From NCBI GenBank assembly GCA_043228905.1, contig JBHGNT010000006.1, positions 11,098,001-11,162,000 on the forward strand: 64,000 nucleotides of DNA, written 5' to 3'. This DNA comes from Azolla caroliniana (lineage: Eukaryota > Plantae > Polypodiophyta). Made by a program: the position numbers and the translations under genes. Shown here piece by piece: positions 11,237 to 52,914 of the stretch; within the stretch, counting starts at the first letter, position 1; the number at the start of each line of letters is the position of its first letter. The notes under the pieces are model-generated. The model saw nothing but the letters and a program-made list of their open reading frames with translations. It did not search any database and was not told the DNA's origin.

Positions 11237-11274
<38 letters not shown>
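11237..11274. repeat. (GA)n microsatellite
   Basis: Direct reading. Confidence 0.95.
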
Positions 11275-11278
<4 letters not shown>

Positions 11279-11429
11279 TATATTAACACTTCTAATACCA
11301 AAATTGACCCATGAGACAATTGGTTTACAATAAAAATGGGGTATTTACCCATTCATTGAAAGTAAAAAAGAAAAAAGAACGTAAGCTAAAGAGTTCTAGC
11401 AAAAAAAAACATGTTCTATAACGAAGTGA

Positions 11430-14400: not shown

Positions 14401-15203
14401 GGAAACATGTGAGCTCTTCTGAGCCCAACCACTTGGCTAAACCATTATATATGATCATCTGGTGTCGACTTCCAAGTTCAAGCAAATGATGGCCAAAGCT
14501 TGTGGTGTCTGAACCTTGATCTTTTGACCTACGTGTGATGCCTATGGCTAAAGGGTCGACATTCACCATGTCTAGGTTTTTATCCATCTGAAATAGTGTG
14601 CATTGTCGGGGATTGAGTTCTCGCATTGAAGTCTCCTACGAGGAAGACTTGACCTTGGGAAGAATATTGGATTATGTCATTCGATAAAGGTTCGTATGGA
14701 GAATGCCCATGTGGCACTCCTTCATCAACTATACTCGCCTCTCCAGCCATATTATATCGGGATCCTTTCGGGGAAAAGTAACAAATGGCGATAAATATTG
14801 CCTGATCTTTGCCTGTGAGGACTTTCACCCCCATAAAACCGGCTTTTGGGTCTGTATTTAGTATTTCTATCCTATTATGTATCTCTCTCCGAAATAGTAT
14901 TGCAACCCCTCCAGACCCTTTAGTAGTGTGTCGACATGAGGTTTGTCTAAAGACAGATTCCCAACGGAAACCGTCAACTTGTGGCAGTCCTCTATTTGGA
15001 CTTTGATGTCTTTCTACTAAGAAAAATATCAGATACCTTCAAAATCTCCTGTAGACCAGCTAGGGTGTGTCCAAAGTGCATCGACGTGTCTATTATGACA
15101 CAAATCATAAAGAGGGCTGGTGAGGGAATCACGACCACAACGGTGCAGGTCGCTCAGAGGAAGGTGTGTGCAATCTGTACCGTCAGATTTCGATAAGAAA
15201 GAA
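11430..15203 (-). mobile_element. Degenerate LINE (APE endonuclease + RT + C-terminal Cys/His motif); clade uncertain, possibly RTE-X/L2-like; ends approximate
   Basis: Endonuclease motifs DIFLVE, GSGGVAILFR, LVGDFNART, STIDY. RT motifs YRTIMIGHTLAKLYG and LLYANDIVLL (YADD-type). C-terminal DEYHFTCKCPTY. Multiple frameshifts and stops. Confidence 0.88.
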
Positions 15204-15224
15204 CACGTGAAAAAAAGAGTTGTC

Positions 15225-15748
15225 AGAGGTTGCCCAACTTTGAGTCGTTGGTCACCCAACCCTGTTAGAGGTCCCCCAACTTATTTGATTATGGGCGCCC
15301 AATTGAGTTACATTTTTTAAACGGTTGGGTGACCGGTTTAAGCAGGTCACCGAATAGAGGTTGCCCAACTTTGAGTCGTTGGTCACCCAACCCTGTTAGA
15401 GGTCCCCCAACTTATTTGATTATGGGCGCCCAATTGAGTTACATTTTTTAAACGGTTGGGTGACCGGTTTAAGCAGGTCACCGAACAGAGGTTGCCCAAC
15501 TTTGAGTCGTTGGTCACCCAACCCTGTTAGAGGTCCCCCAACTTATTTGATTATGGGCGCCCAATTGAGTTACATTTTTTAAACGGTTGGGTGACCGGTT
15601 TAAGCAGGTCACTGAACAGAGGTTGCCCAACTTTGAGTCGTTGGTCACCCAACCCTGTCAAAGGTCCCCCAACTTATTTGATTATGGGCACCCAACTAAG
15701 TTACATTTTTAAAATGGTTGGGTGACCGGTTTAAGCAGGTCACTGAAC
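15225..15748. repeat. 131-bp tandem repeat x4, each unit with ~6 GGTCRCCCAA-like motifs
   Basis: Units start at 15225, 15356, 15487, 15618. Confidence 0.95.
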
Positions 15749-17308: not shown

Positions 17309-20300
17309 TGTCGCGAAGATGTGCGTGCGAGCGTGCTTCGCTTGAGCGGGACCACCGGGGTCTTGGACCAAGGAGGATGTCCGTCAAGGTATTGAGAAGA
17401 GGATGATGTGAATGTAAGATTGGAGGAAGAACTATTACACTTGAGAAGATTGAAGATTGTACACTTTCAGAAGTAGATAAATAATTACAAGATAGATGCA
17501 GAGAAGAAGAAATAAAAGCTTATATTATTGATGGTGATGATGATCGTCATATCATATTGAGCCCCCCCCTTTACACAAGCCGTACTAGGGGTTTTATAGG
17601 TTTGTCCATGCACAAAACCATGGGCTTGGAGCCATGGTTTCTATGCACACAGTTTTGCTTTGTAACATGCAGGAAACCATGGGCTTAAAACCGTGGTTTT
17701 GTGTACACGATTTTGTTCGTTTGTTTCCTACGGAATACTGAATATGAGAAAGAAATATAGAACATCTAAAGCACTTAGTAGTAGCTTTAGTGGTAAGGTA
17801 ATTGCCTCTTATCTTAGAGGTGTAAGGTTCAAATCCTACTTGCAACCCTCTACATGCACTCAATGCCATTGTGACCTAGGTTTATTTATTTTCATTTTTA
17901 CAAGTATTCGTGAAATGTGTGTGGATCCTCAATTTTTGACTTTTTCTCGCACTAGACATGCCACATCACGACATCCACCCCCACCAAACCGCACATGCTC
18001 CGGTATGTGCCAAGAAGAAAAGAGTGATGTGGAAGGGTCAAAGGTGCTGGTGTTTGATTTCCTTCTTTCTTGCGCCTCGTCCGCACCGTCTTTTTGTCGT
18101 CTACTTCGAACTGTCGGTACCATCCGATCCACCATATCATTCGCTTACCTTTTTTATTGCCATGTCTAGTTGTCATGGCTCCCTTTGCTCCTCCCGAGCA
18201 TAACGCTTCATGCCTCATGCATGTGCCACCTTCATCTCGGCCATCTCCTTGGTCACCTAACTTTCCTTTATCATCATTTCTCGTCTCATGCTTGCCTTTC
18301 CTTATGCTCACTAGCCTCAACCAGGTGTCACGACTCGTCTGCTTCGACCTCCGCCTAGGCCAGTTCAACTTTTGTCTGTCTCGACCAATCAACTTCTGGC
18401 TTGGTCGGCCTTCCTCCGGATTCGCATTCGGCTGAATCAGACTCAGACGATCGACTTTCGTCCGGGTCAGTTTCCATCCGGTTTTCGGTTGGGTCGGGCC
18501 CGTTTGATCAACTCTCATTCGGGTCAGCTTCCGTTCGGGTCGGAATACCAATCGCGTCATCTTCCATCCGGATTGTATTCTGGTTCTTCCTTTCTTGCCG
18601 CTATCTGGCTCTTCATCGAACTCTATTGTAGCTTTGTTTTTGGCATCCTTGTTGGCCACCGTTCCTCCGTATGCGCTGGCGTCGACCCTCATCTCCTCGC
18701 CGCCACCTTCCATCTCTCCGGTCTTATGTTCGCTCTCGGGCACAACTGCCGAAGTCTCCAGAATCGGTGTGGAGGGATTCCTTCGTCTATGGCCATCCTC
18801 CTCATCGTTGTTTCGGTCCTTTGATTTCCAGCCGCCACCTTCTGTCTCTCCGGTCTCACGTTGACACTCGGGCACAACTGCCGAAGTCTCAGGAACAATT
18901 GTGGGGAGAACCTCGACACCATCGGTCACCGTCTTCTCATCCGTAGCCATCTTTCGCTCAATGTTGTTATTCACATTTTCTTCAATATTTTCTTCCCCAC
19001 CACTTTCCGTCTCTTGGTCTCATGTTGGCTCTCGGACGCAACTACCCAAGTCTCTAGATCAAGTGTTAGGAAAGTCTTGACACGGTCATTCGCCATGGAC
19101 TCTTCCTTAGCCATGTTCGACTCGATGTCGTTCCTCGTGGCTACCACCACAATCATGTCGACCTCGCACTCTTTACATCCCTTGATCACGCAAGCTTCCC
19201 TCATGCTTGCACCTTCATTACTCGATATTTCAGACACAACATGTGTTCCGAAATGCTCCTCCACTCTTAAAGCAGCATTTCCCGCTCTCGAGTCTTCGGC
19301 CTTTCTCTTGACCGTCATTCCTCCATAAGTCGAGAAGGTGGCTTGTTTCACACCTTCTCCCATGGTACTGTCATACCGAACCTGGGCCTTCGTATTGGCC
19401 GCATCATTAGTCTGCATTTGTTGGGAGGTCTCCTCTTCGTCGATCACCATTTTCCTCGGTTTTGTTTTCAGCTTCTCTTCAACCTCGATTTGTGCCTTTA
19501 AGTTCATGAATGCCTCTCTCATCAAGGCTTCTATGTTGAGTTCTGTCGAAGCTTCCCTCTTCGAGCTTTCTTCCTTCGGTGGGTTTTTATTGCCACATCC
19601 CATTCTCCTTTGAACATCCCTTGTGGGTCGTGTTGTTGTCGATGAGAATCTCATCTCCCTCTTATCGTGTTGTCGGCATACCCTTTTCACTTTGGCCCAA
19701 TCCTCAGTGAGGCCATTTTCACCATTGTCATCCTCGAGTTGGATTCCAATGGCCTTCCTTTCATTCCAATCGATTGACTTTACAAACAGCAGAACTTTAT
19801 TCACCCCCACCAATCTTCGATCCCGGTCCGAGAGTTGAGCGAATCGATACTCAAACTCAACAAATGTATGCATAGCACTCTGGTGGGTCTTTCTCGATGA
19901 CACCCATTTGTGAAACTCATATAGACCTCGTCCCTTTTGCTCTTCGTAACCATATGACTCGTAAAGCTTCTTTGAAGGACACCCACGAATCGTGAGTTTT
20001 TTGAATCTCTTTAATCTCTTCGAAGATCGGTTCGGCCACCACTCGACAGAAGTACTCCAGCCTCATTGCTTCCTCCACTCCTCTTGAATCCATTTCGGCA
20101 TTGTAGGCCTTTAGAAATATTTGGACTTCGCCTCCATCGAAAAACCCGACTTGCTTGATCATGCTTTCAACGGCTTGTTGGGCTGCATCTCGTGTTTTCC
20201 CTTCTCTTGAAAACTCCATCATCATCTTTGACATTGCCTTCATTAGATATTCCTCGTCCATCTTCATCCTCCCCTACCGCTCTTCACATCGGGTTCACCA

Positions 20301-20970
20301 AAAAATGTCGCGAAGATGCGCGTGCGAGCGTGCTTCGCTTGAGCGGGACCACCGGGGTCTTGGACCAAGGAGGATGTCCGTCAAGGTATTGAGAAGAGGA
20401 TGATGTGAATGTAAGATTGGAGGAAGAACTATTACACTTGAGAAGATTGAAGATTGTACACTTTCAGAAGTAGATAAATAATTACAAGATAGATGCAGAG
20501 AAGAAGAAATAAAAGCTTATATTATTGATGGTGATGATGATCGTCATATCATATTGAGCCCCCCCCTTTACACAAGCCGTACTAGGGGTTTTATAGGTTT
20601 GTCCATGCACAAAACCATGGGCTTGGAGCCATGGTTTCTATGCACACAGTTTTGCTTTGTAACATGCAGGAAACCATGGGCTTAAAACCGTGGTTTTGTG
20701 TACACGATTTTGTTCGTTTGTTTCCTACGGAATACTGAATATGAGAAAGAAATATAGAACATCTAAAGCACTTAGTAGTAGCTTTAGTGGTAAGGTAATT
20801 GCCTCTTATCTTAGAGGTGCAAGGTTCAAATCCTACTTGCAACCCTCTACATGCACTCAATGCCATTGTGACCTAGGTTTATTTATTTTCATTTTTACAA
20901 GTATTCGTGAAATGTGTGTGGATCCTCAATTTTTGACTTTTTCTCGCACTAGACATGCCACATCACGACA
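17309..20970 (-). mobile_element. Element A: non-autonomous gag-only Ty3/gypsy (Phygy-like) LTR retrotransposon
   Basis: 665-bp LTRs at 17309-17973 and 20306-20970 (TG..CA, only 2 differences seen); 4-bp TSD ACGG; PBS TGGTGAACCCGATGTGA (tRNA-Trp-like) at ~20284-20300; PPT at 17974-17990; gag-like ORFs 19917-20267 and 18971-19903; no RT or integrase core. Confidence 0.92.
17774..17846 (+). ncRNA. tRNA-like / SINE-head-like Pol III cassette inside the LTR of element A (second copy at ~20771-20843)
   Basis: Box A-like TAGCTTTAGTGG, box B GGTTCAAATCC, tRNA-like spacing; cloverleaf imperfect. Confidence 0.6.
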
Positions 20971-21109: not shown

Positions 21110-22135
21110 TGGCTTCCAAGTCCAAGTACAAAGATTGGTGGGATTCTGATAATGGTGACATATATCCAACTCAAGAGAGGTATGTCACGAACCAATCTCC
21201 CCTAATACTGGTAATGAGGTGTGATGCATGTATGTTGACTTGTGATTTGTTAAAGGGTTTTCGTTAGAAGACATTGGAGAAGTTCGTCGGTTGACATGTC
21301 TAAGGGTGGGGAGAGAATGGATCAGACACTAGTGGTTCATCTGCCTCAGATCGAGCCGATACATGCCATGGCAACATTCGACAAGATGCTCCTCCAAATG
21401 GTATGTGGATTTGGTGTCGTTGTAATATGTCAATCTTTATGCCAATCTTTATGTCAATCTTAAATATGTAACACATACAGAAGGAACAGATGCTCCTAGC
21501 CCAGACTCGTTGTATAAGGTTGGAAGAGATGCAAATGGGAACGAGGCTCGTGCATGAAGGGGCAAGCCATCCTTAGGAAGATGGCTGAACATGATTTTAT
21601 GTTCATTCCGATCATGCTTGACGGCCATTGGGTGTTGTGGATGAAGATGAGACAGAAAGTTTCTAAGCTTACCAACGAAGTAGTCTTCTATGATCCATTA
21701 AACAACGCGACTATTGACAACGTACGGAGTCTAGCAGAGTTGGCGATTCAGACCATTTCATCTGAACCGTCAGACCACACCATTATGTCCAAGGGTCGAC
21801 ATCACGTATTGCACATCCCAAATCAGCCAAATTCTTGGGATTGTGGCTTTTACATGATGAAGACTATCCAGATTCTAGTGGAGGAGTTCTTACGAGGATG
21901 GATACCTCTGACTTTTGTAAGTGTAATTGCAATGCCTTATTCATGTGGATTGTGTATAGATGTGTTCTTATACATATTTGGTGACAGGGCACAGAGATGT
22001 GGTTCACCAAACGCGAAGTGGATTCACTTCGGATTCATGTGGACGAGTGGATTTGCACCTGCGACCGGTGGCCCCATATTGTAAATTTCGTGTCTGCTGT
22101 TTTCAGCACAAATTTTGTTATAGAGTTGATGTTGT
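21110..22135 (+). pseudogene. Spliced Ulp1-like (peptidase C48) cysteine protease gene, transposon-borne; 5' exons probably frameshifted
   Basis: Catalytic His/Asp/Gln/Cys motifs FIPIMLDGHW, VVFYDPL, QPNSWDCG. An intron at 21917-21988 is followed by GTEMWFTKREVDSLR. Upstream candidate exons at 21110-21179 and ~21256-21401. Confidence 0.8.
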
Positions 22136-24094: not shown

Positions 24095-24490
24095 TGGATT
24101 TATGTTGATTTATGAGTGCATTTGGGAGAATGTCATATGTTGATTTATGTTTTAAGTTTCCTGTTTCAAGTATGTCGTATGTTGATTTATGTTTTAAGCT
24201 TCCTGTTTCAAGTATGCCATATGTTGATTTATGTTTTAAGTTTCCTGTTTCAAGTATGTCATATTTTGATTTATGCTTCAAGTATGTCATATTTTGATTT
24301 GGGTTTACGATGTTTAAATTGGATTTATGTTCAAAGGATGTCATATGTTGATTTATGTTTCAAATATGTCGTATGTAGATTTATGTTTCAAGTATGTCAT
24401 ATTTTGATTCATGTTTCAAGTATGTTATAAGTTGATCTCTGTTTTAAGTTTTAAGTTTTAAGTTTTTTAACTTTTAACTTTTATGTTTTA
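24095..24490. repeat. 21/42-bp degenerate tandem array (ATGTTGATTTATGTTTTAAG...TTTCAAGTATGTC)
   Basis: Direct reading; it produces the repetitive ORFs at 24024-24430. Confidence 0.9.
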
Positions 24491-37849: not shown

Positions 37850-38886
37850 TGTAAAAATGTTTTCCGATTAATAAAACAATCAATACTTTCTATAATACAA
37901 TGCATGGATTTACCCATTACTTTGGTGTGAAAAGTCATGCACAAAATAAAGGGAGCAAGAAGATTTTGATGCATTGTGTACTTCAGGGATGACATAATTA
38001 TTTGGTATGTTGCTCAAATATTCAGATGTGGATATAGTCAAAATATTAGAAAATTTCTTGAATGAGAAAGAATGCAACAAAAGATTCGTTCATGTAAATT
38101 CTATTGAAATGTAACTTCATATTGCTGATTTTATTTAAAAAAATGGTTGTATAGATAATAGTGAAATAGCTACCAATAGCTATCACGGAATAACTAATGA
38201 TAAAAAAGCAAGTGAAAATGGCTATGCAATAATAGTTAACACTAAATTTAAACAATAGACAAAAAGGTCAAGCTTGTGGCCAAGCATCTGCCTATGGATA
38301 GTACTGAAATGAAGAAGAATGTTACGTTTGAGCAAATGTTACAGGATTCTAAGGATATTGGTCATAAGTTTACAAATGCTACTCTAGATCAACTAAAAAT
38401 TCGTGAGAATGATTTTCTTTTACCCGCTGTCGTGAAGATCCGTCACTACGCGCGGATCGTGAGGCGGAACTGTCGGGGTTCTGGACCGGAAGGATTCAAA
38501 GTCGGTACAAGCTTTGGCGCAAGCTTTAGCGAGAAAGTACTTAAGATAGATTGGGAAAGAGAGAAGTTGAGATCAAACGATTGAGAGAGATTGATTGAAC
38601 TTTTATCTTTGGATTTAAGAAACAAGTTACACGATCAATTTGATAACGAATTTCTTCTTCTTAATTTCATAACCCAAAAAAACGTGTTTTTTCTCCTCCC
38701 CCCTCCTTTTATAGATGCTCTCATGCATATGATGCATGTGAGGGTACAAGACATGCATAAAATGCATGTTTGCCATTTGGCGCTTATGTATTACATGTGG
38801 TGCATGATAACCATGTCACTCATTTTAGCTCTCATGTATGAGAATTTACATGTAAAAGTACAATGATAGAAATATAAATTCAACTA

Positions 38887-38958
38887 ATTGGCATGGCTTA
38901 ATGGTAAGCCAATTGACTCCTAACTTGGAGGTGCAAGGTTCGAATCCTTACTTGCCCT
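38887..38958 (+). ncRNA. tRNA-like / SINE-head-like Pol III cassette inside the LTR of element B (second copy at ~51637-51708)
   Basis: Box A-like TGGCTTAATGG with D-arm GCTT/AAGC; anticodon-loop-like CT-CCT-AA; T-arm AAGG-TTCGAAT-CCTT; GGCA/TGCC acceptor-like pairing. Confidence 0.65.
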
Positions 38959-41900
38959 CCTTGTATATGTATATGTTTATATATTTATTTATCTAGTCAC
39001 CGGACGCCGGTTCATCGGATGCCGTCGGTTACTGGTGCCTCGCCGGATGCCGTCGGTTACCGATGCCGTCACCGGATGCTGCCGCTGGATCACCGGCTCC
39101 ATCGCCGGTCCTGTTTTGGTTGGCCAAAACCCTTTACGAGTAGCTAGCCCACCTCCACTCTTAGTTCAAGTTACCTTGAACTCTCTATGCTCCACACATA
39201 GACACAAAGATAATATCTTTTGCTCTACCTTATATATGATGAGAGTCGTATTTGTCGTGCCTACGTGGGATATCTCACAATTTTCTCTTTTCCTTTCACA
39301 AACTTTATACCCTCATATCTTGACATTTAGTTGTTTGTTTCTCGTGTAATAAAGTGCATTCGAAACCTCCATCATTTTGTACTTAGATATTAAATTTATT
39401 TAAAATGTTATCTTCACAATTATTGTATTATGTGATTCATACTCGATTTCGTACGTTTTATGGGATTTTCACACTATTGCCGAAAATCTTCACAACATCC
39501 ACCCCCACCAAACCGCACATCCTCCGGTACGTGCCAAGATTTTGGCTACGGTGATCAATTAGATTCCTCCATGTCTTCATTTACATCCGCCCTATTATGT
39601 TCATCGTCGAGGTGATCGAGGTCAGGATCCTTGTCTTGTCTTTTCTTGAAAATCTTTACTCTTTTTCCCGCAATGGGTACGGCCAACCTTGATCCGTCTA
39701 GTTCCGCAAGGTGGTATGTGGCATTATCGTTGGCACTTGTCACCACATACGGCCCGAACCATCTTCTTGCGAACTTCCTTGTTGTACTGTGTTGATTGTC
39801 AAGAGTGCTGTCGTAAACCAAAACTCAATCCCCTTCTTCAATCTTCTCGGGACGAAGTCGATGCGTGTTGTCGAACCGAACTTTGTTCTTTACTCAGGCT
39901 GCCTCCATCATCTTTCGCGCTTTTCCTAAATCTTCAGGTCTTCTTTCAAGTTGCCTTATCCGCGCCGCTAATAACTCTTCTCGGCTCATCTCGTTCTCCC
40001 ACGGTATCGCTACCCATGAGGCGATCGTCCTTTCGATGGGCATAATCGGCTTTTGTCCATACATAAGCTCCGTCGGCATATACCCTGTCACCGAGCTATG
40101 TGTCGTTCTATCGGCCCACAAGGCATAGGGTAATAGTCGTGGCCAATTCCCGACTCGACCGTTGCATGCCCGTACGATGGCTTTAACGATAGGTCCATGC
40201 CCTCGCTCGATCTTCCCATTCGCTTCCGGATTGTAGGCAGTCATGAGGGAGAGCTTCACGCCTAGTCTTTCGAAGAGCTCCGTCGCTTCGTGCACGTCCA
40301 ACTCCCCTCAATCGGCCACTATCTTCCCTACACATCCATATCGGCAAACAACCTCTTCAAGCAGAAATTTGCAAACGGTTGAAGTCGTCTTATTTGTCAA
40401 GGCTCGTCCTTCCACTTGATTTGTCAAGTCTTCCCTTACCAGCGCTAAGTACTTCATTTGTCCCACTCCCATTGGCATTGAGACCAGATCCACCATCCAT
40501 TTGAAGTGTATGGTGAGTGGGTATGTCGGCTGTAACTCATCACGATGACGTATATTTGAATATATTTGGCAAGTTTCGCATGTGGACACGAAATGGAGTA
40601 CATCTTTGTACATGCTTGGCCACCAGTACTTCTCCTTCAACTTTTCGAACGTCGCCCATGTTCCTCTATGACCTGCCCAAGCACTCTCGTGGAATTCGGT
40701 CATCAGCGTCTCTTGCTCTTCTTTCTTTACCACCACTCGACGTGGTATTCCTGTCCTTCTTTTTGGATGTCGCCAAAGGAATCCTCCCTTCAAGAAGTAT
40801 CGGTAAGCTTTCTTTCGGATTTGTAGGGCCTCCTCCTTTGTCAACGAAGCATCTATCGTCAATGTTCTTAGGAATCTACCGATGAGTAACCACTCTCCTT
40901 TGTACTCGTTCTCGTTGAAGGTGTGGAGGGTTTGCGTGTCCTGGTCTTCCGCCGACAATCGAGCCATCTTGAAGAAGTCGAGGGTGACATCTTCATCTTC
41001 CGAAACCATGTTACTTCCATTTGAAAATCTTGCCCTCGACAGCATGTCAGCCATGGCGTTCTTCTTCCTTGCAATGTGACGGATCTCTAGGTTTAAAGAC
41101 TTGATGTAGGCAATCCACCTTAGCATAGCAAGATCTGGGGTCGCACATCCCGAGACCATTCCGAGAATTGGGAGACAATCTGTCTCTATTATCACTTCTG
41201 ATCCGATCAGGTAATCTTTGTCCGTCTTCACTACCGACACAATACCCCAAAGTTCCCGCTTGACTTGGGCATATCTTTGTTGCTGTTCGCTAAGAACCTT
41301 TGCTCCGAACCGGACGGCATATCGCGCATTATCTTCACCTTCTTGATTGATGACCCACCTGATTCCGGTTGGGCTCGTATCTACGGTCACGTAAATTGGC
41401 TTTCCTTCGGCATAGTCAGCCTTCCTTAGTGCCGGAGCTTCAAGAAGCAGTTTCTTTAATCTTCGCATCGCATTTGTGTGCTCATCTCGCCATTCAAACT
41501 TCATTCTTTTCTTTAGTAGTCCATATAACGGTTCGGCGACATGAGCGTAGTGAGGAATCCATATATGATAAAACGCGCACACTCCAAGGAACCTTCGAAC
41601 CTCCGAACCTCCGTTTGGTTTTCGCATTCTTCTTTCATGTCTTGGATTGCGTTCACTTTGGATGACGAGGGCTTCCGGCCGTATGCTCCACACAAGTGAC
41701 CTACCACCAAGATCTCCGGTTGCCCGAATGCGGATTTTTCTCCCGAAAATGTCAAATTCGCATCTTCGAGCCTTTGAAGCACCTTCTCGCAATCTTTCAT
41801 ATGATCCGCAACGAACTTTCTACAACCTTCCTTATCTTTCGATTCATCTTTCTCCTCATCCGAACATCCTTTTATCGGAATATCATCCAAGAATGGCATC

Positions 41901-42994
41901 GTGATGTCCGGGATGCAATCCTTCAAGACTTTATTCATGGCATTCACCATATGAGCCACCGAGTTCGTTGCGCCTTGGGGTAAGGTACACATCCGCACAA
42001 GCCCGATTGGAGTCCTCATGGTTGTAATGTCCCGACTGTCGATCGCCAATTGGAATTGGTCATATCCGGAGTAGAGATCGCCAATGGAGTAGATGGACCG
42101 GCCCGCAAATGCTTCGGCAAATTCGTCCATGCTCGGACCGATTCAGGCATTTCGAATTGTCACCTTGTTGACGGGTTGAAGATCTTGGATGAATCGCAAT
42201 GATCCATTCTTCTTTGGCACCGTGAACCACCTATTGGAATAAGGAGCATTCGACGGTTCTAGAATTCCCATACTCACCTTCTCCTTTAAGAGCTCGATCA
42301 GCTTCGGAAGGTGTGCTCTCGGAACCGGTATCGGTTTCAAATTCCAAGGCACATGAGGCACCGTGAAGATCACCATCGGCTCTATAACCTTTGGGTCGGC
42401 GCTTCCGATTTCTCGTGGGAAGAATGCGAAAGCCTTCCCATGTCTCTCAAGCATATCGCGAAACATTCGATCCTCTTCAGGGAGAAGGAAATCCTTCTTT
42501 CCAACTCGTAGCTTCCCCTTCGTCTCTTTGGTGAAGACATGACCTATCTTCTTCGGATGTCTTAAGCTTGGATCGTTTGCTACTTCCTTAATCTTTTGCC
42601 AGCTATCTTCCGGTAACGGAGCTGCAACTGGCTTGATCTTCTTATCCACCGTTTTATATTTCGTGTTGATGTCAGCTTCCTTCATCGAGATGCCACGACG
42701 GTATTCATCGATGATAGCGTACATGTTGACGGAGTTAACCGAAAGCACCCGTTGGTTGTGAAGATAGCTCAAGTCCATGACGTCCTCGATTTTGGCAATG
42801 GTGTCGTTAAATGAGGATTCTTCCATAATATGAGTCACGAACTCTCCTTCTTCTATTATGTTTTCTTCTTTCAGCATCTTCTCGAATTCTTGTATCCGGT
42901 GCTTGTGCTTCTTGTCGGGTAGTACTAGTTTACATGCGCCACTAGGTGTGACACATGTTGCTTCTCCTCGCAATCCACGCACTCTTCTTTCTTG

Positions 42995-43057
42995 TGGGGT
43001 CTTGTGATTGCTCGGACTATTTGTGCCCTATGCTTCAATAGTCCGCTCTAAAAATCC
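42995..43057 (-). promoter_or_regulatory. Candidate programmed -1 ribosomal frameshift signal between protease and RT (element B)
   Basis: G_GAU_UUU_UAG, 5-nt spacer, perfect 9-bp stem CGGACUAUU/AAUAGUCCG; the downstream pol ORF (42143-42982) is in the -1 frame. Confidence 0.7.
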
Positions 43058-45117
43058 GAGGATTCGCCTTCGAGACTATCTCGATTCCTTTCATGATTGG
43101 CTGGCACCGTTAGGAATTGGACCGATCTTTGGTTGTCAAGACTCTTTATTCGTGCAAAGGCTGCTCCATTATCGAACACTTTGGTCTCCATCCGAGATGA
43201 TGTGATATAAGGTTGCCCTAGGATGACAAGATGTGATGCCGATTCTTGTACGAAGAAGTGTTGATCCATCTCCACATCCCCAATTGTGACTTTGATATTG
43301 GGACAAGCTCCGTACAAGTCCTCCGTAGACTTTGTTGCCGTGCGAATCTTCCATCCGTGGTTTGTATTGATTGGCCATCTTCCTTTTTTGTAGAAGTCGG
43401 TTGACATGAGATTGATCTCTGAGCCGTGGTCGATCAAGGCTACCACGGTCTCTTTCTTCTCCCCGATCTTCACCGGCGTCTCCGTTGGCGCTCGTGCCCA
43501 ATGAGGTCAAGTATAGTGGCTGTCCACCATATCTTCATCGACTTCGTCTCTTGCCATCGTTATGGCATTCGTTTTTGCTTTTTGCGGCTTCTCTTCTTCT
43601 TCGTCCGATTGTTGTCTCTTTCTCTTTACAAGGTCCACGATCGTGTGATGGAACTCCTTCTTCGTAATGCCAAGCAATTCCCTCAAGGACAAAGCTACGT
43701 GGCTATCAAGAACTCGTTCTTCGAGAATCTTCTTTAGGTCCGTCGTCCGCTCTATGTCCGACCTTAGCTTATAGGTAGGTATAGTCCTTGTCCTCCGAGC
43801 GGGGTCTTCGACACCAACCTTGACGGGCCGAACCGTGTCTTCAACGCGTATGCTCGGCTCCCCTTTTCGGCTTGATTTTCGTTCCTCCGTTTGTAACGGT
43901 CGACTCGTCTCCGCATCGTCCTTCTTTTTCGCGTTCCTTGTTTCATGTCTTTTTGATGGGCCTTGCTCTTCTATTCTCTTTCTCTTTTCTTCGACGAACA
44001 CCTCGTGGTTGTCGCACATCACCTCTGCGAGTATGGTGTTGTCGTCCACCGGATCCGTCTACCCGGTTATGCTTTGCACGCTTCGGTCCGCAAGCTCTAC
44101 CTCGTTCGATGTGACTTTTCCCTTCTTCTCATATTCGAGAACGGAAGTCCAAAACTTTGCTCCCACTCTAGCAGCTTCAGTCTTGTTTTTCCCGACTCTT
44201 ATTCCGGCCGACCCAGCATAGTACATCGCATCCACATGAGTCGCATCGGCATCCTCCATAGATTTCTTCATTCCTCCTCTTCCGAAATTCACCTGTAGGG
44301 GTTTTCTAGTCTCACTTGAGCGGATCATGTTGTCCTCTATGTATACGATATTTTGTCGAATCGCCTCTCGAAGGCTCGCACAATCCCTTCTCATGTGGTC
44401 CATGCTATCGCACCACACGCATCTAAAGGGTTCTTTTCCTTTAGGGCCCCAACGATTCATGTTGGCTAGCGTGACCTTCTCAAACTTCTTCGCTAGCTCT
44501 TCAATGATGTCATCATCAATCTTCTTTTCTTCCACGTTACTTTGTCTTGGCGGCTCAGCTACTTTCGGCGGTCTTGCTTTCTCCGTGGTAGTCGATCCCG
44601 TCAAGTCGGTGTCATCAACCCATTGGCGACGCTTGTCGAGCCTATTGCATGCCCGCTTCACCGCGATCCAGTCCGCTATGAGCCCATTTGCTTGGGTATC
44701 ATCTTCGAGAAGAGTCCCCAACTCCCGTCTATCCTTTATGTCCACGGCCTTCAAGAAGTACAAAGTCTTGTCCTCTTCAAGCAACACTTGGTCCGTATTG
44801 GGGAGACGACGAAACATCTGGTCGAATTCGTCGTACACCCTCGAGACGCTCATCTTCTTATTCTTCTTCTCTATCCACTTCATCAGGGCATGTCGAGTCA
44901 TCCTCGTTGAGTCTTCGGTCACGAACTCCGCTAGTATCGTTTTCTCGAACTCGGACCATGTTGTCTTACCTTCTTGAAGCTCGATGACACGTCTTTGAAT
45001 GTTGTTGGCGAAAACTCTCTTGAAGCTTGCGATTTGACGTGCCTCGGACACGTCCCTCTGATTCATCTCCCTTCTATATGCATCAAGGAACTTCGTAACG
45101 TTCCTTCCATCGAATTG

Positions 45118-45455
45118 TGTTGAGCGGCAAGCTCAACCGGAGCCGGATCGGCTGAATAAGCCGGAGCCGGTAAGCGAGACGGATCGGGCGAAACGGATTG
45201 GTATGACGGTGAGCAACCGAACTGGCAAGCAGTGGAGGCCGGGTGCAATCCGTAACTGGAAGTCCAATCCGAAGCCTAGTATAGGATAGACTACTAGGTA
45301 GCTATAGTCTCGTAGTAAGTGTTAGATGCTCGTGTGAGCATTGAAGTACATGGTACTTCTATCAGTCCCAAGAGGACTTGTATAAATAGTGCTACTTAGC
45401 ACAGTGTGTAGATAGAGTCTCGATATAATTTTGAAATAGTGTTCTGCTCTCTCTG

Positions 45456-45517
<62 letters not shown>

Positions 45518-48500
45518 GTTCTCTGTTTTTTTACGCTTCCGCAAACACTTACGTTTACATGGTATCAGAGCGTGAGGGTTGAGAACCTATGCTGCAGACA
45601 TTTACTCTTGAGAAGAAAACCCTAACAGGTCGAAAACAGACACAGTAGAAGACATGGATAGAGGCATGGCTACGTCGCTCCCGGTGGAGAAGCTCGACAG
45701 GAGCAACTACACATCCTGGTCTTACAAGATGCACTAGTACCTGCTTGGACATGGGTATTGGAGTTATGTCGAAGGAGCGAATGATGCGGCGCCCGACTCG
45801 GCACAGAAGGACTTCCCGGTATGGGAACAGGCGGCAAGCAGGGTGATGTACTGCTTCGCGTCTAGTGTCGGCGATCAGCTACTCAGCCACATCCGTGACG
45901 CCAAGACACCGAAGGATGCTTGGGGGAACCTGAAAAAGGTTTTCGCCGCAAGCACCACTGCTCGGAAGCTGCAACTTAGACAGGAGTTGAGCAATGTTCG
46001 ACAGAAGAACATGTCCGTGGTAGACTACACGGGCCGGATAAAGGAGATCTGGGACTCGCTCACCTCTATCAATGTTACCGTAGAGGAAGACGAGATGGTG
46101 CAGGTATGTCTCGGAGGCCTGGCGTCCAAGTTCGGAGGATTCCGGACTGCGGTGTGTACAAGGGAGAATACCCCCTCATTCTTCGACATACAATCGATGC
46201 TCCTTGTAGAGGAGAACCACGCCGGTGCATCTACCAGTGCATCCCCGGACAACCGAATGCTGTACACGGGAACGGATCAGCTCCGTGGGCATGGTGGAAG
46301 AGGTGGGTCGGCACGCAATGGAGGCGGCCGGCAAGAGCAGGAACGGAGGCACTATGAGCGTGCCGACAGCAGTTCCGGGACTCCAGAGAAAGCGAGTGCT
46401 GGAGAAAGCGAGTGCTGGAGAAAGCATGCCGATTCGGACAAATCCGGATCCGGCAAGACCGGTAAGGATGGCCGGCAAAACTCGCACTACGCAAACGGAT
46501 TAGGAGGATCCGGAACCGGAAAGGCCGGTAAGGGGCCAGCCTTGGTGATGAATCACAAGGCAAACTCAATGAAAAAGACGACTTCCAAAACGGAGGAAGT
46601 GTGGTATGTTGATTCCGGCGCGTCGAACCACATGAAGAGCCACAAAGAGTGGTTCTCCTTTCTAGAGAAACCGGATCAACCAGGAGTAGTCGAAACCGGA
46701 GACGACACTCCTCACCCAATCGTGCACGTCGGAGAAGTCCCTCTAAGCCACATTGGACAGAAAGGAAAGCTGATGAACGTATTACACGTTCCGACAATCA
46801 CGAAGAACCTGGTGTCCGTCGGTCAGATTGTCGACCAGGGGATGCAGGTGTGGTTTACGCACCTCGGGTGCTTCATTGAGGATGAGGGCGAAGTCATTGC
46901 GCAAGGGCGCAAAGACGGGAGGATGTTTATCCTCAACACCAATGACTTTGGCACCGCTCTGTTCACGAAACGACAGAAGGTCGAGTCGGACATCGACCTA
47001 TGGCACAAGCGTATAGGCCACGTCAACTACCGGAGGCTTCAAGACCTGCAAACGAAACAAGTCGTTTTCGGTTTGCCGAAGTTCAGCGGCCGGAGAGCCG
47101 AAATTTGTGAAGCCTGCCAACTTGGGAAGCAACACCGGCTTCCATTCCCCACCGAACGGAACCGGAGCCGTAACAAGCTCGATCTCATCCATTTGGATGT
47201 GTGGGGACCGACACAAAGTGTAAGCCTTGGCGGGAGCCGATACTTCGTCTCCTTCAACGATGACTATACTCGCCATACTTGGATCTACCTCATTGAGCGG
47301 AAGAGCGAAGTCTTCGACTGTTTCTGGAGCCTCCAGAAGATGGTGGAACAGGAATCAGAGAGGAAGATCAAATGCCTTCGGTCGGATGGCGGAAAGGAAT
47401 ATTTTTCGGGCCAATTCACTAGTTATCTGCAGCAGAAGGGAATTCAGCGAGAGTTCAGCTGCAGATACACACCGGAGCAAAACGGTGTGGCCGAAAGGAA
47501 GAACCGGACACTCGTCGAAGCGGCAAGGGCGATGCTGGAGGAGAAGAGCATGCGCCGACTCTACTGGGCTGACAAGGTGTTAGCTCATGAGCTGTATTTC
47601 GGGCGCAAGCCGAACTTAAGACACCTTCAGATATTTGGCAGCATAGCGTATGTGCATGTGCCGGATCAGAAGCGGAGAAAGCTGGATGCAAAATCGGAAA
47701 AATGCATTCTAGTCGGCTATGCTCAAGAGCAAAAGGGGTATAAGTGCTTTAACCCCCGAACGAAGGAAGTCTGAGTTAGCCGGGATGTCGAGTTCGATGA
47801 ATCGGCATCCTGGTACTCCGTACCGACTCCGACTTCTGATCCCGACCCAATGTCGGAAGATCAGGCCAGTGAGCCTGAATCATCCCTGGCAGAGGATGAC
47901 GAAGCCTGGACTCAAGATGAGAGTCCGGAATCGTTACGGTTAAGTGGACCGAACGAGCAACTGAGTCGGTTGGACCAGTCGGATGAAGAGACGACAAGTG
48001 GTGGAGACTCTGCCGTGCTCTCCCCGCGCAAGGAACCGAGGAAACGGTTCACGCGCAAAGAGAAGGGGAAGAGGAAGATGCCTGAATTCGAAACCGGCAA
48101 CAATGAGTCGGATCGGTGCGTCTCCGACTCTGGAAAGGAGAAAGGCGGATCTTCGAAAACGAAGACCGAACTGGCCAAGAAGGGCCTGAAATCAGGTGAC
48201 GGTGCGTTGCGCAGATCAACCTGCCAGAAGGATCCCGTCATACGGTACAGGTATAATGAATACATGGCGCATCATTATGTGTACATGACTAAGGTGACAG
48301 AAGTGCGTGAGCCGGAGAGCTACGCAGAAGCGGCAAAGGACGCAAATTGGCATGCCGCTATGGACGAAGAAATGCGGGCACTCGACGCCAACGAAACTTG
48401 GGACCTAGTTGATCCTCCCCGTCACTATAAACCGATCGGATGCAAGTGGGTGTACAAGGTCAAGTACAACGCCGATGGTTCTGTTAACCGGTACAAAGCC

Positions 48501-50976
48501 CGGTTAGTGGCGAAGGGATACACGCAGACCCATGGAATCGACTACGACGAGACCTTCGCTCCTGTGGCGAAGATGACGACGGTTCGTGTGGTACTGGCGG
48601 TTGCTGCGGCAAGGGGGTGGCATCTTCACCAGATGGATGTGAAGAACGCCTTCCTTCAAGGAGATCTTGAAGAAGAAGTCTTTATGACTCAGCCCCCCGG
48701 ATTTCACTCGGAGATGAGCAAGTCGGCGGTATGCCGACTGAAGAAGTCGCTTTACGGCTTGAAGCAAGCCCCCCGAGCTTGGAACGCGAAGATCACGCAC
48801 CGGTTGCGTAAGCTGGGGTTTGCTGTCTCTAAGTCAGACTCTTCGTTGTTCATCCGGCAAGGCTCTGACAGTCCGGTATGTATACTCTTGTATGTGGATG
48901 ATTTAGTCATCATCGGACCGGGTCTTCCCGAAATCAACCGCGTCAAGTTCCGGTTGTCGGACGCCTTCGAAATGAAGGACCTGGGGGACCTTCATTATTT
49001 TCTTGGGATCGAAGTGATCCGGACCCCCGATGGCATATTGCTCTCACAACGACATTACGTGTTGAATATGCTGTATAAGTTCGGCATGACGGATTGCCGA
49101 CCTGTCTCCACACCCCTAGACCGGAAGCAGAAGCTCCGTCCCAACTCCGGACCGACCTGCAATGAGAAACGGTTCCGACAGGTTGTCGGAAGCCTGATTT
49201 ACTTAACCATCACCCGACCCGACATCAGCTATCCGGTCGGGATGGTAAGTCAGTTCATGCAGAAGCCGACCGTGGAGCACCTTCAGTGCGCGCAACGAAT
49301 ATTACGGTATTTCAGCGGCACTAAGGACCGGGGACTGCTATACCGGCGAGGTATACCCGAAGAGCTTGTCGGTTGCACAGATGCTGACTGGGCCGGCGAT
49401 GCGTCTGATTGCCGCTCCACTTCCGGATACATGTTCTCCATAGGTAGCGCGGCCGTTGCGTGGAGCAGCAAGAAGTAGCCCACAATGGCTTTGTCAAGCA
49501 CTGAGGCTGAGTACCGGGCCGCTACCGTTGCCACTTGTGAAGCCATCTGGCTTCGGCGACTGCTGTGAGACTTGCGGATCGAGGTACCGACCCCGATCCC
49601 GATTTACTGCGATAACATGAGCAGCCTGTAGCTCGCCAGAAACCCTGTGTTCCATGCTTTCACAAAGCACATCGAGGTGCACTACCACTTCGTGCGTGAG
49701 CGGGTCCTGAGCGGTGAAGTTGACCTACGGTATGTTCATACGGATCGGCAAGTTGCCGACATCTTCACCAAGCCGCTCGGATCGGACAAGTTGCAACACT
49801 TTACCGACATGCTTGGTATTCAGCATCTCGACGTGCTGCACTTGAGGGGGAGAAGCAAGGGCAAAGGCCAAAAAATTGTTGAACCTGTCGGTAAGAGGAG
49901 AGCCGGAAGAAGAGGAGACAAGAAGATGAAGGAAGCCGAGTCGACGAAGGAAGTTGACACATCCGAACAGGTCGGAGCAAGCGGCTGTGAAGAAGAGTTG
50001 TGCACTCAGGAAGAGAAGTGCATGCTGTGCGGAGGTCATCACGACTGTATTGACCATGATGCAGAGTCGAATGAAGAATTCGATTTCGGTTCACCGGCTG
50101 AAGAAGTCGAGGGAAGCATGGAGAAGGCCAAGACTCGGAAGTGGTCCGATGTGGTGAGAGGCCTGAAGCCGGAAGTCGAATCGGAGTGTACCGATTCGGA
50201 CAAGAGCTGGAACGAGTCGGAGATAGCTGACTCGGATCAACAGATAGATCCGAATGAGTTAGATCGATTGAAGGCCAAGGGGACACGGACACAGCGGAAG
50301 TCGATGCCATCGTGGGAGAACCGACGGATCGGCAAGCGCCGGAGTCACAACAACGTGAGTGTTGAGATGGGCCTATTGAGCAGACATGTCGACCGAGAGG
50401 GTCGAGGCGCGCAGAACCAAAGGGGTCGCGGCAAATGGGACCGGACCGGACGAGGAGCGCGAGCAAGGCGTAGTGATGCCAGGAGAAGTCGGTTGGAAGA
50501 ACCGACTGTCACAGAGGTCGACACTACGACCCCACCTCAGGTTGAGCTTGAGGGGGAGTGTTGAGCGGCAAGCTCAACCGGAGCCGGATCGGCTGAATAA
50601 GCCGGAGCCGGTAAGCGAGACGGATCGGGCGAAACGGATCGGTATGACGGTGAGCAACCGAACCGGCAAGCAGTGGAGGCCGGGTGCAATCCGTAACCGG
50701 AAGTCCAATCCGAAGCCTAGTACAGGATAGACTATTAGGTAGCTATAGTCTCGTAGTAAGTGTTAGATGCTCGTGTGAGCATTGAAGTACATGGTACTTC
50801 TGTCAGTCCCAAGAGGACTTGTATAAATAGTGCTACTTAGCACAGTGTGTAGATAGAGTCTCGATATAATTTTGAAATAGTGTTCTGCTCTCTCTGTCTC
50901 TCCCTCTCTGTCGAGCTCTCTGTCTCTCTCTGTTGTTCTCTGTTTTTTTACGCTTCCGCAAACACTCACGTTTACA
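45118..50976 (+). mobile_element. Full-length, nearly intact Ty1/copia LTR retrotransposon inserted in the gag of B
   Basis: LTRs 45118-45559 and 50559-50976; 5-bp TSD AATTG; PBS TGGTATCAGAGC 45560-45571; PPT 50548-50558; gag-PR-INT 45843-47774, RT 47850-49478, RNase H plus long extension 49647-50564; a few in-frame stops. Confidence 0.96.
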
Positions 50977-52914
50977 AATTGGCCCTCGAGCTCTACGACA
51001 CGATCGACAACCTTCTCCACGCTCGCGTCGTTGTCCTGAGATCTCATCATTTGCTCGACGATTAGCATCATTCTTTCGAGCTCTCCCGCTTGGTTGCTTG
51101 AGGACGCCATCTCCAAGTATTAATCTCGACTTGATCCTCCCTACCGCCTCTTTCACGTCGGGTTCACCACTTAATTATGTCGTGAAGATCCATCACTACG
51201 CGCGGATCGTGAGGCGGAACCGCCGGGGTTCTGGACCGGAAGGATTCAAAGTCGGTACAAGCTTTGGCGCAAGCTTTAGCGAGAAAGTACTTAAGATAGA
51301 TTGGGAAAGAGAGAAGTTGAGATCAAACAATTGAGAGAGATTGATTGAACTTTTATCTTTGGATTTAAGAAACAAGTTACATGATCAATTTGATAATGAA
51401 TTTCTTCTTCTTAATTTCATAACCCAAAAAAACGTGTTTTTTCTCCTCCCCCCTCCTTTTATAGATGCTCTCATGCATATGATGCATGTGGGGGTACAAG
51501 ACATGCATAAAATGCATGTTTGCCATTTGGTGCCGATGTATTACATGTGGTGCATGATAACCATGTCACTCATTTTAGCTCTCATGTATGAGAATTTACA
51601 TGTAAAAGTACAATGATAGAAATATAAATTCCACTAATTGGCATGGCTTAATGGTAAGCCAATTGACTCCTAACTTGGAGGTGCAAGGTTCGAATCCTTA
51701 CTTGCCCTCCACACATAGACACAAAGATAATATCTTTTGCTCTACCTTATATATGATGAGAGCCGTATTTGTCGTGCCTATGTGGGATATCTCACAATTT
51801 TCTCTTTTCCTTTCACAAAGTTTATACCCTCATATCTTGACATTTAGTTGTTCGTTTCTCGTGTAATAATGTGCATTCGAAACCTCCATCATTTTGTACT
51901 TAGATATTAAATTTATTTAAAATGTTATCTTCACAATTATTGTATTATGTGATTCATACTCGATTTCGTACGTTTTATGGGATTTTCACACTATTGCCGA
52001 AAATCTTCACAACACCGCTAAGACACAATGTTTTTTCAAAATATGATTGCTAGTCATGGGAAAACATTTGCATTTCAGTTGAGTGAAATTGGTTGTGTAG
52101 ACTCAACATTTGTGGAACCAATGACTATATTCACGGTTCCACATATTCCTTGGAATTTAAGGCCTATCCATGTTCCTCAAGCCCAAATACCGCAAGTAAT
52201 ACCTTTGCTTAAGGAAAAATAGAAATGGGTATCTTGGAGCCATCAGATGCCCCCTACTTGAATAAGTGGTTTACTGTACCTAAAAAGAATGGTTCATTAA
52301 GGTTCATTCAATATTTACAACTTGTCAATAGAGTTACTATTTGAAACGTTAGTGTTGGACTAATTGTAGATGCCTCTATAGAAGCTTTCACAGGAAGAGG
52401 TATAAATTCCATGCGTGATTTATATTCAGGATATGATCAATTTCAGCTTGCTATTTATAGTCGTGATATAATTACTATAAGAACACCAATTGCAAAATGC
52501 TCGGTGAATAAGAAGGATGAAAAATTCATGCCGAACGGATGTAGAAAGTTTGTTGTGGACCACATTCGTGATTGTTAAAGAATCCTTTGAAGGTTAGACG
52601 AGGTTCATCTTACATTTTCAGGTCAAAAATCCATGTTTGGGGCTCCCAAAGTTTTGATTGTGGGGCACATGTGAGGCCCCTACGGAAAAAAGGCATCCCC
52701 AATTAAGGTAAATGCAATTCAAAATCTAAAGGATGATTGTAAGTCTCTAACGGAAGACGTAGGTTTCTAGGTGCTTGTGTGTTTTACCAAATTTGGATTC
52801 CACATTTCGCACATGTGGCTGATCCACTTTATTAGTTGCTTAAGAAAAATTCAAGGTTCCTTTGGATTAATGTACATATAGAAGCAATTCGCCAACTAAA
52901 GGAAATGTTATTGA

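What the first reader, a model, noticed from the sequence alone, without database searches (positions are those of the whole stretch)
17589..17846. tRNA-like Pol III cassette built into the U3 of two LTR families at the same distance from the TATA box
Seen: both LTRs of A (17774-17846, 20771-20843) and both LTRs of B (38887-38958, 51637-51708) contain box A- and box B-like motifs with tRNA spacing, antisense to the element. Each begins ~180 bp upstream of the minus-strand TATA (CTATAAAA at ~17592-17599 in A and ~51457-51464 in B), although the surrounding LTR sequence is poorly alignable. A central hairpin covaries (CCTCT-TATCTT-AGAGG versus CTCC-TAACTT-GGAG). I did not find the cassette in LTRs C, D or G. 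Known: Cassandra TRIMs carry a 5S Pol III promoter in their LTRs, and TFIIIC-bound B boxes can act as chromatin barriers. Inference: a tRNA-based analogue that may insulate or activate the LTR promoter or produce antisense RNA.
Basis: partly seen in the sequence, partly recalled or inferred. Interest (0 to 1): 0.72.

Follow-up and report, generated by a model that had tools for sequence, protein, structure and literature searches.

The report
Backward tRNA-like promoter in retrotransposon ends
Many families of a plant jumping-gene lineage carry, in each end repeat, a backward-facing decayed tRNA copy about 190 bases before their own start signal; it keeps its polymerase III promoter boxes and likely serves as a protein landing pad that would help keep the element's promoter open, though this is untested.

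Summary
Real feature; function unproven. All four cassettes are at the stated places, antisense in U3. They are the only strong similarity between LTRs A and B (58 nt, 84%). A and B have Phygy-type Ty3/gypsy hallmarks: 4-bp NCGN TSD, shared PBS and PPT. B has gag-PR-RT-RH-INT, broken. The cassette recurs in 27 of 122 metagenome LTR loci (12 of 70 clusters, three unalignable LTR types). Box spacing is nearly fixed, and box A lies 141-212 bp from the TATA. Boxes A and B and the stem before box B are kept; the acceptor stem is not, so it is not a tRNA gene. B-type LTRs hold a second, decayed sense copy just past the TATA. Related LTRs lack the cassette, so it is dispensable. The closest known kind is Helenus, but those are tiny elements with a sense cassette. 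Best reading: a domesticated Pol III/TFIIIC promoter module (0.45); main rival, an old SINE relic (0.3). The scan noted Helenus-type and internal antisense tRNA-like cassettes on other DNA, not this one.

The parts
17309..20970 (-). Element A: non-autonomous Phygy-type Ty3/gypsy, 3.66 kb, gag-like remnant only, 4-bp TSD ACGG
   Evidence: LTRs differ at 2 of 665 positions
17309..17973 (-). 3' LTR of A
17776..17851 (+). tRNA-derived cassette, antisense to A (3' LTR): box A 17782-17793 (one extra base), box B 17826-17836, hairpin around box B about 17816-17851; first T4 at 17889
17592..17599 (-). TATA box of LTR A (3' copy), predicted Pol II core promoter
   Evidence: same motif and position in related LTRs
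17974..17990 (-). polypurine tract of A
20283..20300 (-). primer-binding site of A (tRNA-Trp type by Phygy analogy and recall)
20306..20970 (-). 5' LTR of A; TATA 20589-20596
20773..20848 (+). tRNA-derived cassette in the 5' LTR of A (box A 20779-20790, box B 20823-20833; first T4 at 20886)
38428..52014 (-). Element B: full-size Phygy-type Ty3/gypsy (about 7.7 kb without nested copia C), gag-PR-RT-RH-INT with stops and a frameshift, 4-bp TSD CCGC
   Evidence: LTRs differ at 16 of 837 aligned positions
38428..39497 (-). 3' LTR of B (1070 bp); TATA 38707-38714
38887..38960 (+). tRNA-derived cassette in the 3' LTR of B (canonical box A 38894-38904, box B 38937-38947)
38586..38655 (-). second, decayed tRNA-derived copy, sense to B, about 60 bp downstream of the TATA (3' LTR)
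   Evidence: profile from five non-window sense copies, E 1.7e-13; link to the main cassette is weak
38961..39193 (.). 233-bp U3 segment abutting the cassette; present in the 3' LTR and in relatives, deleted from B's 5' LTR
   Evidence: L017; loose ends
39498..39514 (-). polypurine tract of B
45118..50976 (+). nested copia element C (no cassette)
51152..51169 (-). primer-binding site of B
51178..52014 (-). 5' LTR of B (837 bp); TATA 51457-51464
51336..51405 (-). second, decayed sense copy in the 5' LTR of B
   Evidence: E 2.9e-12
51637..51710 (+). tRNA-derived cassette in the 5' LTR of B (box A 51644-51654, box B 51687-51697; first T4 at 51735)

Best explanation
A decayed tRNA-derived sequence sits antisense in U3 of a subset of Phygy-type Ty3/gypsy LTR families, about 190 bp upstream of the TATA, and its A and B boxes are likely kept as a polymerase III promoter module that would recruit TFIIIC and so help keep the element's own Pol II promoter open. 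Shown: presence, orientation, position, near-fixed box spacing, conservation limited to tRNA positions 8-60, loss of the acceptor stem, and no free-standing copy among the strong hits examined. Inferred: it entered once, as a tRNA or SINE head, into an ancestral LTR and was copied to both LTRs by reverse transcription. Inferred: TFIIIC (perhaps with TFIIIB, which would sit between cassette and TATA) binds it. Inferred: any Pol III transcript would be about 70-230 nt, antisense, with a hairpin around box B, and would end inside U3. Inferred: the benefit is chromatin opening or barrier activity. The module is helpful at most, not essential, because related LTRs without it exist.
For: Found in 27 of 122 PPT-anchored metagenome loci and 12 of 70 LTR clusters; reversed-sequence control best E 0.13. 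Of 32 strong hits, 29 are antisense in U3. A14-G53 spacing is 38 nt in 26 of 29. Ungapped identity between LTR types is 23-37% in the flanks and 19-56% over positions 1-7, against 63-74% at box A, 74-83% over positions 40-51 (not an anchor motif) and 75-85% at box B; the anticodon arm falls to 34-35% against type C. Gapped alignment gives the same trend with less contrast: boxes 60-86%, flanks 49-59%. Box B consensus is met in 17 of 23; box A is canonical in 8 of 23 and has one extra base in 8 more. G53-C61 pairs in 23 of 23 while the acceptor stem does not pair. Distance to the TATA has sd 17 bp, against sd 121 bp to the LTR start (n=18). 17 of 25 listed weak phage BLAST hits fall on annotated tRNA genes (E 0.05-8). 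TFIIIC binds boxes A and B, and yeast tRNA genes are nucleosome-depleted with ordered upstream nucleosomes (PMC5911963, passages). Barrier activity of tDNAs is recalled, from no call.
Against: No binding, chromatin or transcription data. Within one LTR type the cassette (62-90%) is barely more conserved than the region toward the TATA (69-80%). Box A and box B served as alignment anchors, which inflates their identity. 15 of 23 copies lack a canonical box A and 6 of 23 fail box B. LTRs E and H of the same lineage lack the cassette, as do 27 of 35 clusters read to at least 700 nt. L047 (a high-coverage B-type contig) has it deleted, L119 (C-type) lacks it, and L079 and L036 keep only the box A half. 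Positions 40-51 and the hairpin around box B are not needed by a pure A/B-box promoter. At least one LTR (L059) is a mosaic with its junction at the cassette, so recombination could homogenise it. The loci come from one series of assemblies and are not an independent phylogenetic sample.
Confidence: 0.45

Rival explanations
1. Neutral relic. An old SINE or tRNA pseudogene inserted once into U3 of an ancestral Phygy LTR and has been carried along since, homogenised by template switching between co-packaged families; it does nothing now.
For: Dispensable. Little excess conservation within LTR types. A shared segment of about 35-40 nt and a T-rich stretch follow the cassette in A-type and some B-type LTRs, like a SINE body and tail (by eye). 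Mosaic L059. Frequent box mutations. Kojima proposes SINE insertion into an LTR as the origin of such sequences (PMC10886601).
Against: Between types A/B and C, the anticodon arm and acceptor stem sit at background while the boxes and positions 40-51 stay at 63-83%. Spacing is free of indels in 26 of 29 while the flanks are unalignable. Orientation and distance to the TATA are constant.
Confidence: 0.3
2. RNA-level element. Because the cassette is antisense, the 3' end of the genomic RNA carries the complement of a tRNA plus a hairpin. This would pair with a host tRNA (the primer) or pause RT, aiding initiation, minus-strand transfer or template switching, as with the U3 part of the Ty3 bipartite PBS or the HIV-1 U3 S1 site.
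For: Orientation and U3 position fit. Precedents: PMC5371799 (passages) and PMC9757044 (passages). The conserved span 8-60 is roughly the part of a primer left free by the PBS (inference). The hairpin around box B has z<-2 in 15 of 23 (16 of 23 on the genomic strand) against 3 of 68 flank windows; 5 of 8 pairs show a double change, reached by 8 of 500 shuffles.
Against: The cassette is not a copy of the primer where this can be tested. Positions 59-73 match the primer end read from the PBS at only 3-7 of 15. Positions 49-53 are mostly CAAGG, whereas the primer's T-stem predicts RYGTG. Elements with the same PBS lack the cassette. Primer positions 8-48 could not be tested because no host tRNA gene was obtained.
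Confidence: 0.14
3. Small-RNA gene. The important product is the short antisense Pol III transcript (tRNA-like head, hairpin, T run), acting in trans as a decoy or a self-regulating small RNA.
For: Box A, box B, hairpin and a T4 within 72-227 nt in 27 of 29. The B family is very abundant in the host's DNA contigs. Earlier unchecked notes describe similar antisense units inside fungal Gypsy elements.
Against: The distance to T4 and the 3' sequence vary widely, so no fixed transcript is conserved. The RNAalifold consensus is weak (-0.95 kcal/mol).
Confidence: 0.09
4. Helenus/Cassandra-type promoter that transcribes the element's genomic RNA by Pol III.
For: tRNA-derived A/B boxes in both LTRs, as in Helenus.
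Against: Antisense orientation, T4 within about 70-230 nt, elements of 3.7 and 7.7 kb, and a conserved Pol II TATA. The three Helenus LTRs seen in the supplement carry the tRNA-like part in sense.
Confidence: 0.02

Closest known systems
Helenus / TRIMp3 (Kojima 2024, PMC10886601; read: abstract, introduction, methods, results, discussion = parts 1-4 of 6, figure legends, supplement passages)
   Same: [quoted passage not shown]
   Different: Helenus are 311-1263 bp non-coding TRIMs. The three LTRs seen in the supplement, including the only plant family (Selaginella, 325 bp, 5-bp TSD), carry the cassette in sense. Here it is antisense, upstream of a Pol II TATA, in 665-1070 bp LTRs of 3.7-7.7 kb elements, one with gag-pol. 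Kojima argues autonomous partners must use Pol II and notes only in passing that 'not a few' other LTRs hold part of a tRNA.
Cassandra (5S-derived Pol III promoter in TRIM LTRs; as described in PMC10886601 and the listing abstract of bioRxiv 10.1101/2023.07.14.548913)
   Same: Pol III internal promoter inside a plant LTR.
   Different: 5S type, drives the element's own RNA, short non-coding TRIM.
Phygy lineage of non-chromovirus Ty3/gypsy (Neumann 2019, PMC6317226; passages and one supplementary table row)
   Same: 4-bp NCGN TSD, tRNA-Trp-dominated PBS, size 7.7-10.0 kb.
   Different: No tRNA-like LTR cassette is mentioned in the passages seen; only some families here carry it.
Ty3 bipartite PBS with a U3 segment (PMC5371799, passages) and HIV-1 U3 S1 / tRNA-Lys3-like sequence (PMC9757044 passage; the original 2010 paper was seen as a title only)
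   Same: tRNA-complementary sequence in U3 of the genomic RNA.
   Different: Those match the primer tRNA; this cassette does not match the primer's T arm or acceptor end.
tDNA and extra-TFIIIC (ETC) sites (TFIIIC binding and chromatin state from PMC5911963 passages; barrier activity recalled)
   Same: A/B boxes without need for a tRNA product; candidate TFIIIC landing pad next to a Pol II promoter.
   Different: Those are host loci in fungi and animals; here the site is carried by a mobile element in a plant, and binding is untested.

Membership tests
Helenus (TRIMp3) | tRNA-derived sequence with boxes A and B in both LTRs | tested here: met
Helenus (TRIMp3) | miniature non-coding TRIM (311-1263 bp) | tested here: not met
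   A is 3.66 kb with a gag remnant; B is about 7.7 kb with gag-pol
Helenus (TRIMp3) | cassette oriented to transcribe the element (sense) | tested here: not met
   29 of 32 strong hits antisense; three Helenus LTRs seen are sense
Helenus (TRIMp3) | 5-bp TSD in plant and fungal families | tested here: not met
   4-bp ACGG and CCGC
Cassandra | 5S rRNA-derived box A/IE/box C | tested here: not met
   no Rfam match window-wide; motif is A/B-box type
functional tRNA gene | cloverleaf with paired acceptor, D, anticodon and T stems | tested here: not met
   ARAGORN 0; Rfam 12.2 of 29 bits; six of seven acceptor pairs formed in at most 8 of 23
Pol III type 2 promoter | box A and box B consensus at tRNA spacing | tested here: met
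   B canonical in both boxes; A has box B plus box A with one extra base; 17 of 23 meet box B, 8 of 23 canonical box A
Pol III type 2 promoter | TFIIIC/TFIIIB/Pol III binding and transcription | not testable with these tools
   no ChIP data; only contigs, no raw RNA reads
SINE (free, active family) | own TSD and tail, dispersed outside LTRs | tested here: inconclusive
   no TSD seen; the 11 listed loose ends at the cassette borders resemble LTR flanks by eye, but 309 rows were not shown; the locus sample was LTR-anchored and no genome was held
Phygy (REXdb) | 4-bp NCGN TSD | tested here: met
   ACGG and CCGC
Phygy (REXdb) | PBS for tRNA-Trp | tested here: inconclusive
   the PBS complement equals an abundant plant small RNA (miR894, PMC5846777); that it is tRNA-Trp is recalled and fits; no tRNA gene obtained
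Phygy (REXdb) | size 7.7-10 kb, gypsy domain order PR-RT-RH-INT | tested here: met
   B about 7.7 kb; order
Phygy (REXdb) | placement in the Phygy clade of an RT-RH-INT tree | not tested
   no REXdb reference sequences on hand; the tree held no references
primer-complementary U3 element (Ty3/HIV type) | complementarity to the primer tRNA | tested here: inconclusive
   not met for positions 49-73; positions 8-48 untestable without the host tRNA gene

The most novel reading that the evidence does not exclude
A clade of full-size plant Gypsy retrotransposons has domesticated a tRNA-type Pol III promoter as a portable chromatin barrier. B-type LTRs bracket their own TATA with two outward-pointing tRNA-derived copies, so the element carries a self-insulated promoter into heterochromatin.
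Probability: 0.25. Interest if true: 0.8.

Novelty: new variant of a known kind. Interest (0 to 1): 0.5.

Why it matters
tRNA-derived LTR sequences were described as sense promoters of miniature elements (Helenus). An antisense copy held upstream of the Pol II TATA in full-size elements must do something else, if it does anything. If TFIIIC binds there, retrotransposons can carry their own anti-silencing or insulator module, and an abundant family would scatter many TFIIIC sites through a plant genome, where tDNA-type insulation is little studied (my judgement). Natural cassette-less and half-cassette subfamilies give ready controls. If it is neutral, it is still a lineage marker and a warning for tRNA and SINE annotation in seed-free plants.

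Tried and rejected
No whole genome was held. RNA: no RNA holder listed. Two runs guessed to be RNA gave 6 and 0 contigs on LTR A and one gave 3 on LTR B; contigs show neither strand nor level, so this says nothing on expression. Summed contig depth over cassette A (28,400-41,800 against 1,560-14,400 elsewhere in the LTR, run X1) first looked like a free SINE. On LTR B there is no such peak, so cross-mapping from the abundant B family and other LTR families explains it. A host tRNA-Trp gene was not obtained: 0 hits in genome and viral contigs, only small-RNA papers, none, and relaxed ARAGORN on the loci was noise. The PPT pattern found 0 in viral contigs. Rfam on 8 cassette loci gave no tRNA hit. 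An integrase tree could not test monophyly: 12 rows, one with a cassette. The central hairpin covariation was rejected. The isotype of origin is unresolved (phage hits to Arg, Trp, Gln, Lys and Asn). The 233-bp segment was first read as an insertion into B's 3' LTR; L017 and loose ends show it is the family norm. The HIV-1 U3 paper and a related review were not held. Not-in-print claim: paper searches found no description of this cassette in Phygy LTRs. One search listed 20 of 68, subscription papers are not searched, and Repbase/REXdb entries were not seen.
Full report
Observation. A box A...box B pattern matches only at 17782-17836, 20779-20833, 38894-38947 and 51644-51697, all on the + strand. 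The pattern was written after seeing the cassettes; it gives 4 hits in the window and 0 in 200 block shuffles. Elements A (17309-20970) and B (38428-52014) run on the - strand, as PBS and PPT show, so the cassette is antisense and in U3. Among the LTRs of the window it is the only strong match between A and B (58 nt, 84.5%, E 1.7e-12). A14 of box A lies 190 bp (A) and 186 bp (B) from the TATA. It is not a tRNA gene: ARAGORN finds none and Rfam finds nothing window-wide. Locally B scores 12.2 bits against a cut-off of 29 and A has no tRNA hit.

Host elements. A and B share a PBS (one base apart), a PPT and 4-bp NCGN target duplications. Neumann et al. list 4-bp NCGN, tRNA-Trp (81%) and 7.7-10.0 kb for the Phygy lineage (PMC6317226; passages, supplement row). 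B is about 7.7 kb without its nested copia, and has gag, PR, RT, RH and INT with stops and a frameshift. A is a 3.66-kb derivative with a gag remnant and LTRs differing at 2 of 665 positions. Named protein relatives are from a fern (Adiantum, 57% for the best hit) and liverworts (Riccia). The host is therefore probably a seed-free land plant (inference; earlier unchecked notes on this genome disagree between fern and moss). Tree placement in Phygy was not tested.

Distribution. To sample LTRs without regard to the cassette I scanned metagenome contigs for the PPT-LTR junction. An iterated profile found the antisense cassette at E<1e-6 in 27 of 122 loci; the reversed-sequence control's best E was 0.13. 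The 109 sequences with at least 120 nt of LTR, four of them from the window, form 70 clusters. Twelve of these carry the cassette, as do 8 of the 35 clusters read to at least 700 nt. Of 32 strong hits, 29 are antisense in U3, 2 are sense inside the LTR, and 1 lies in a neighbouring LTR fragment. Carriers fall into three LTR types whose flanks do not align (A-like, B-like, and L072/L073/L014/L090). Contigs of two other organisms of one study also cover the cassette in B-type LTRs. These loci come from one series of assemblies and are not independent samples.

What is conserved. A14-G53 spacing is 38 nt in 26 of 29. The distance from A14 to the TATA is 141-212 bp (median 190, sd 17, n=18 with a TATA in reach), whereas the position from the LTR start is 129-657 (sd 121). 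So the cassette travels with the core promoter, but the distance is not fixed. Ungapped identity between types is 23-37% in the flanks. It is 63-74% at box A, 74-83% over positions 40-51 and 75-85% at box B. The anticodon arm is 76% between A and B but 34-35% against type C. The boxes were the anchors, which inflates them; positions 40-51 were not. Free gapped alignment shows the same trend with less contrast (boxes 60-86%, flanks 49-59% between types). Within a type the cassette is barely above the region toward the TATA. Box B consensus is met in 17 of 23 distinct cassettes; box A is canonical in 8 and has one extra base in 8. The acceptor stem does not pair; the three T-stem pairs next to the loop do (21-23 of 23).

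Structure. A longer hairpin enclosing box B does better: 5 of 8 pairs show a double change (8/500 shuffles), the covariation score is reached by 21/500, and folding gives z<-2 in 15 of 23 against 3 of 68 flank windows. This is modest. The RNAalifold consensus is only -0.95 kcal/mol, and the structure was chosen from these same sequences.

SINE or LTR part. No TSD flanks the cassette. A shared segment of about 35-40 nt and a T-rich stretch follow it in many carriers (by eye), which fits an old SINE-like origin. The depth peak over cassette A is explained by the abundant B family, which shows no such peak. The 11 listed loose ends at the cassette borders look like known LTR flanks; 309 rows were not shown. 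A free SINE is not excluded without the genome.

Evidence against a vital role. LTRs E and H in the window have no cassette. L047, a high-coverage B-type contig, has it deleted; L119 (C-type) lacks it; L079 and L036 keep only the box A half. L059 is a mosaic with its junction at the cassette, so exchange between families may keep copies alike.

Second copy. B-type LTRs hold a second, more decayed copy in sense about 60 bp downstream of the TATA: window 38586-38655 and 51336-51405, at E 1.7e-13 and 2.9e-12 with a profile built from five non-window copies. A profile of the main cassette alone finds L001's second copy at E 1.4e-5 and those of L040 and L058 at only 0.03-0.04. Kinship is likely but weak.

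Mechanism. The cassette points away from the element's promoter and meets a T4 run within 72-227 nt in 27 of 29 (113 nt in A, 98 nt in B's 5' LTR). It therefore cannot make genomic RNA as in Cassandra or as proposed for Helenus. Keeping boxes, spacing and position while losing the tRNA fold fits a TFIIIC-binding module. TFIIIC recognises boxes A and B, and yeast tRNA genes are nucleosome-depleted with ordered upstream nucleosomes (PMC5911963, passages). I infer that this helps keep the Pol II promoter 190 bp away open (0.45); barrier activity of such sites is recalled, not from a call. A neutral relic homogenised by recombination is the main rival (0.3). A role at the RNA level has precedents in Ty3 (PMC5371799, passages; paper pointed out by earlier notes) and HIV-1 (PMC9757044, passage). 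However, the cassette matches the primer end read from the PBS at only 3-7 of 15, and its T-stem differs from the primer's; positions 8-48 are untested (0.14). A trans-acting small RNA gets 0.09.

Comparison and novelty. Helenus (PMC10886601; parts 1-4 of 6, legends and supplement passages) is the closest described kind, but it fails on size, orientation and TSD. Kojima notes without detail that other LTRs hold tRNA parts. A 2026 sugar beet paper mentions only Cassandra and Helenus/Ajax (PMC13570524, passages). Searches found no account of this cassette in Phygy LTRs; subscription papers and Repbase were not seen. The scan's notes hold Helenus-type TRIMs and antisense tRNA-like units inside fungal Gypsy elements on other DNA (unchecked), and nothing like this sequence. 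Verdict: new variant of a known kind, interest 0.5.

Noticed in passing
window 38586-38655 and 51336-51405; L040, L058, L079, L017, L001: A second, more decayed tRNA-derived copy lies in sense about 60 bp downstream of the TATA in B-type LTRs, so the TATA is flanked by two outward-pointing copies. L040, L058 and L001 keep a box B consensus in it; L056 and L057 keep only its 5' half.
   Followed up: partly
window 17600-17720 and 51470-51600: The region between cassette and TATA is an array of short CATG/TGCA-containing palindromes in all three LTR types, though the sequences differ; a candidate enhancer.
   Followed up: no
window 38961-39193: A 233-bp U3 segment is missing from B's 5' LTR; the deletion starts at the cassette's 3' end between short CTCC repeats.
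   Followed up: yes
L059 (also L102 by eye): Mosaic LTR: B-type on the TATA side, A-type on the other side, with the junction at the cassette.
   Followed up: partly
window 58253-59088 (-), 60917-61766 (+), about 35327-35600 (+): Three more LTRs of the same lineage (same PBS or PPT); none has the cassette, and the one near 35.4 kb is truncated upstream of its TATA.
   Followed up: partly
window 20283-20300 and 51152-51169: The complement of B's PBS equals the abundant plant small RNA annotated as miR894 (PMC5846777); A's differs by one base. A tRNA fragment could target these elements.
   Followed up: no
window 191-218: A weak box A-half match (E 0.15) directly after a long G run; probably chance or a remnant.
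   Followed up: partly
window 21518-22084: Ulp1 protease (PF02902) fragment beside element A, probably from a DNA transposon.
   Followed up: no
window 34358-35140: A GC-rich RT fragment (RVT_1) only about 32% identical to the Phygy-type RT; it belongs to another retroelement lineage.
   Followed up: no
window 5834-6259, 15093-15747, 24100-24480: Tandem repeats of 142, 131 and 14/28 bp units.
   Followed up: no
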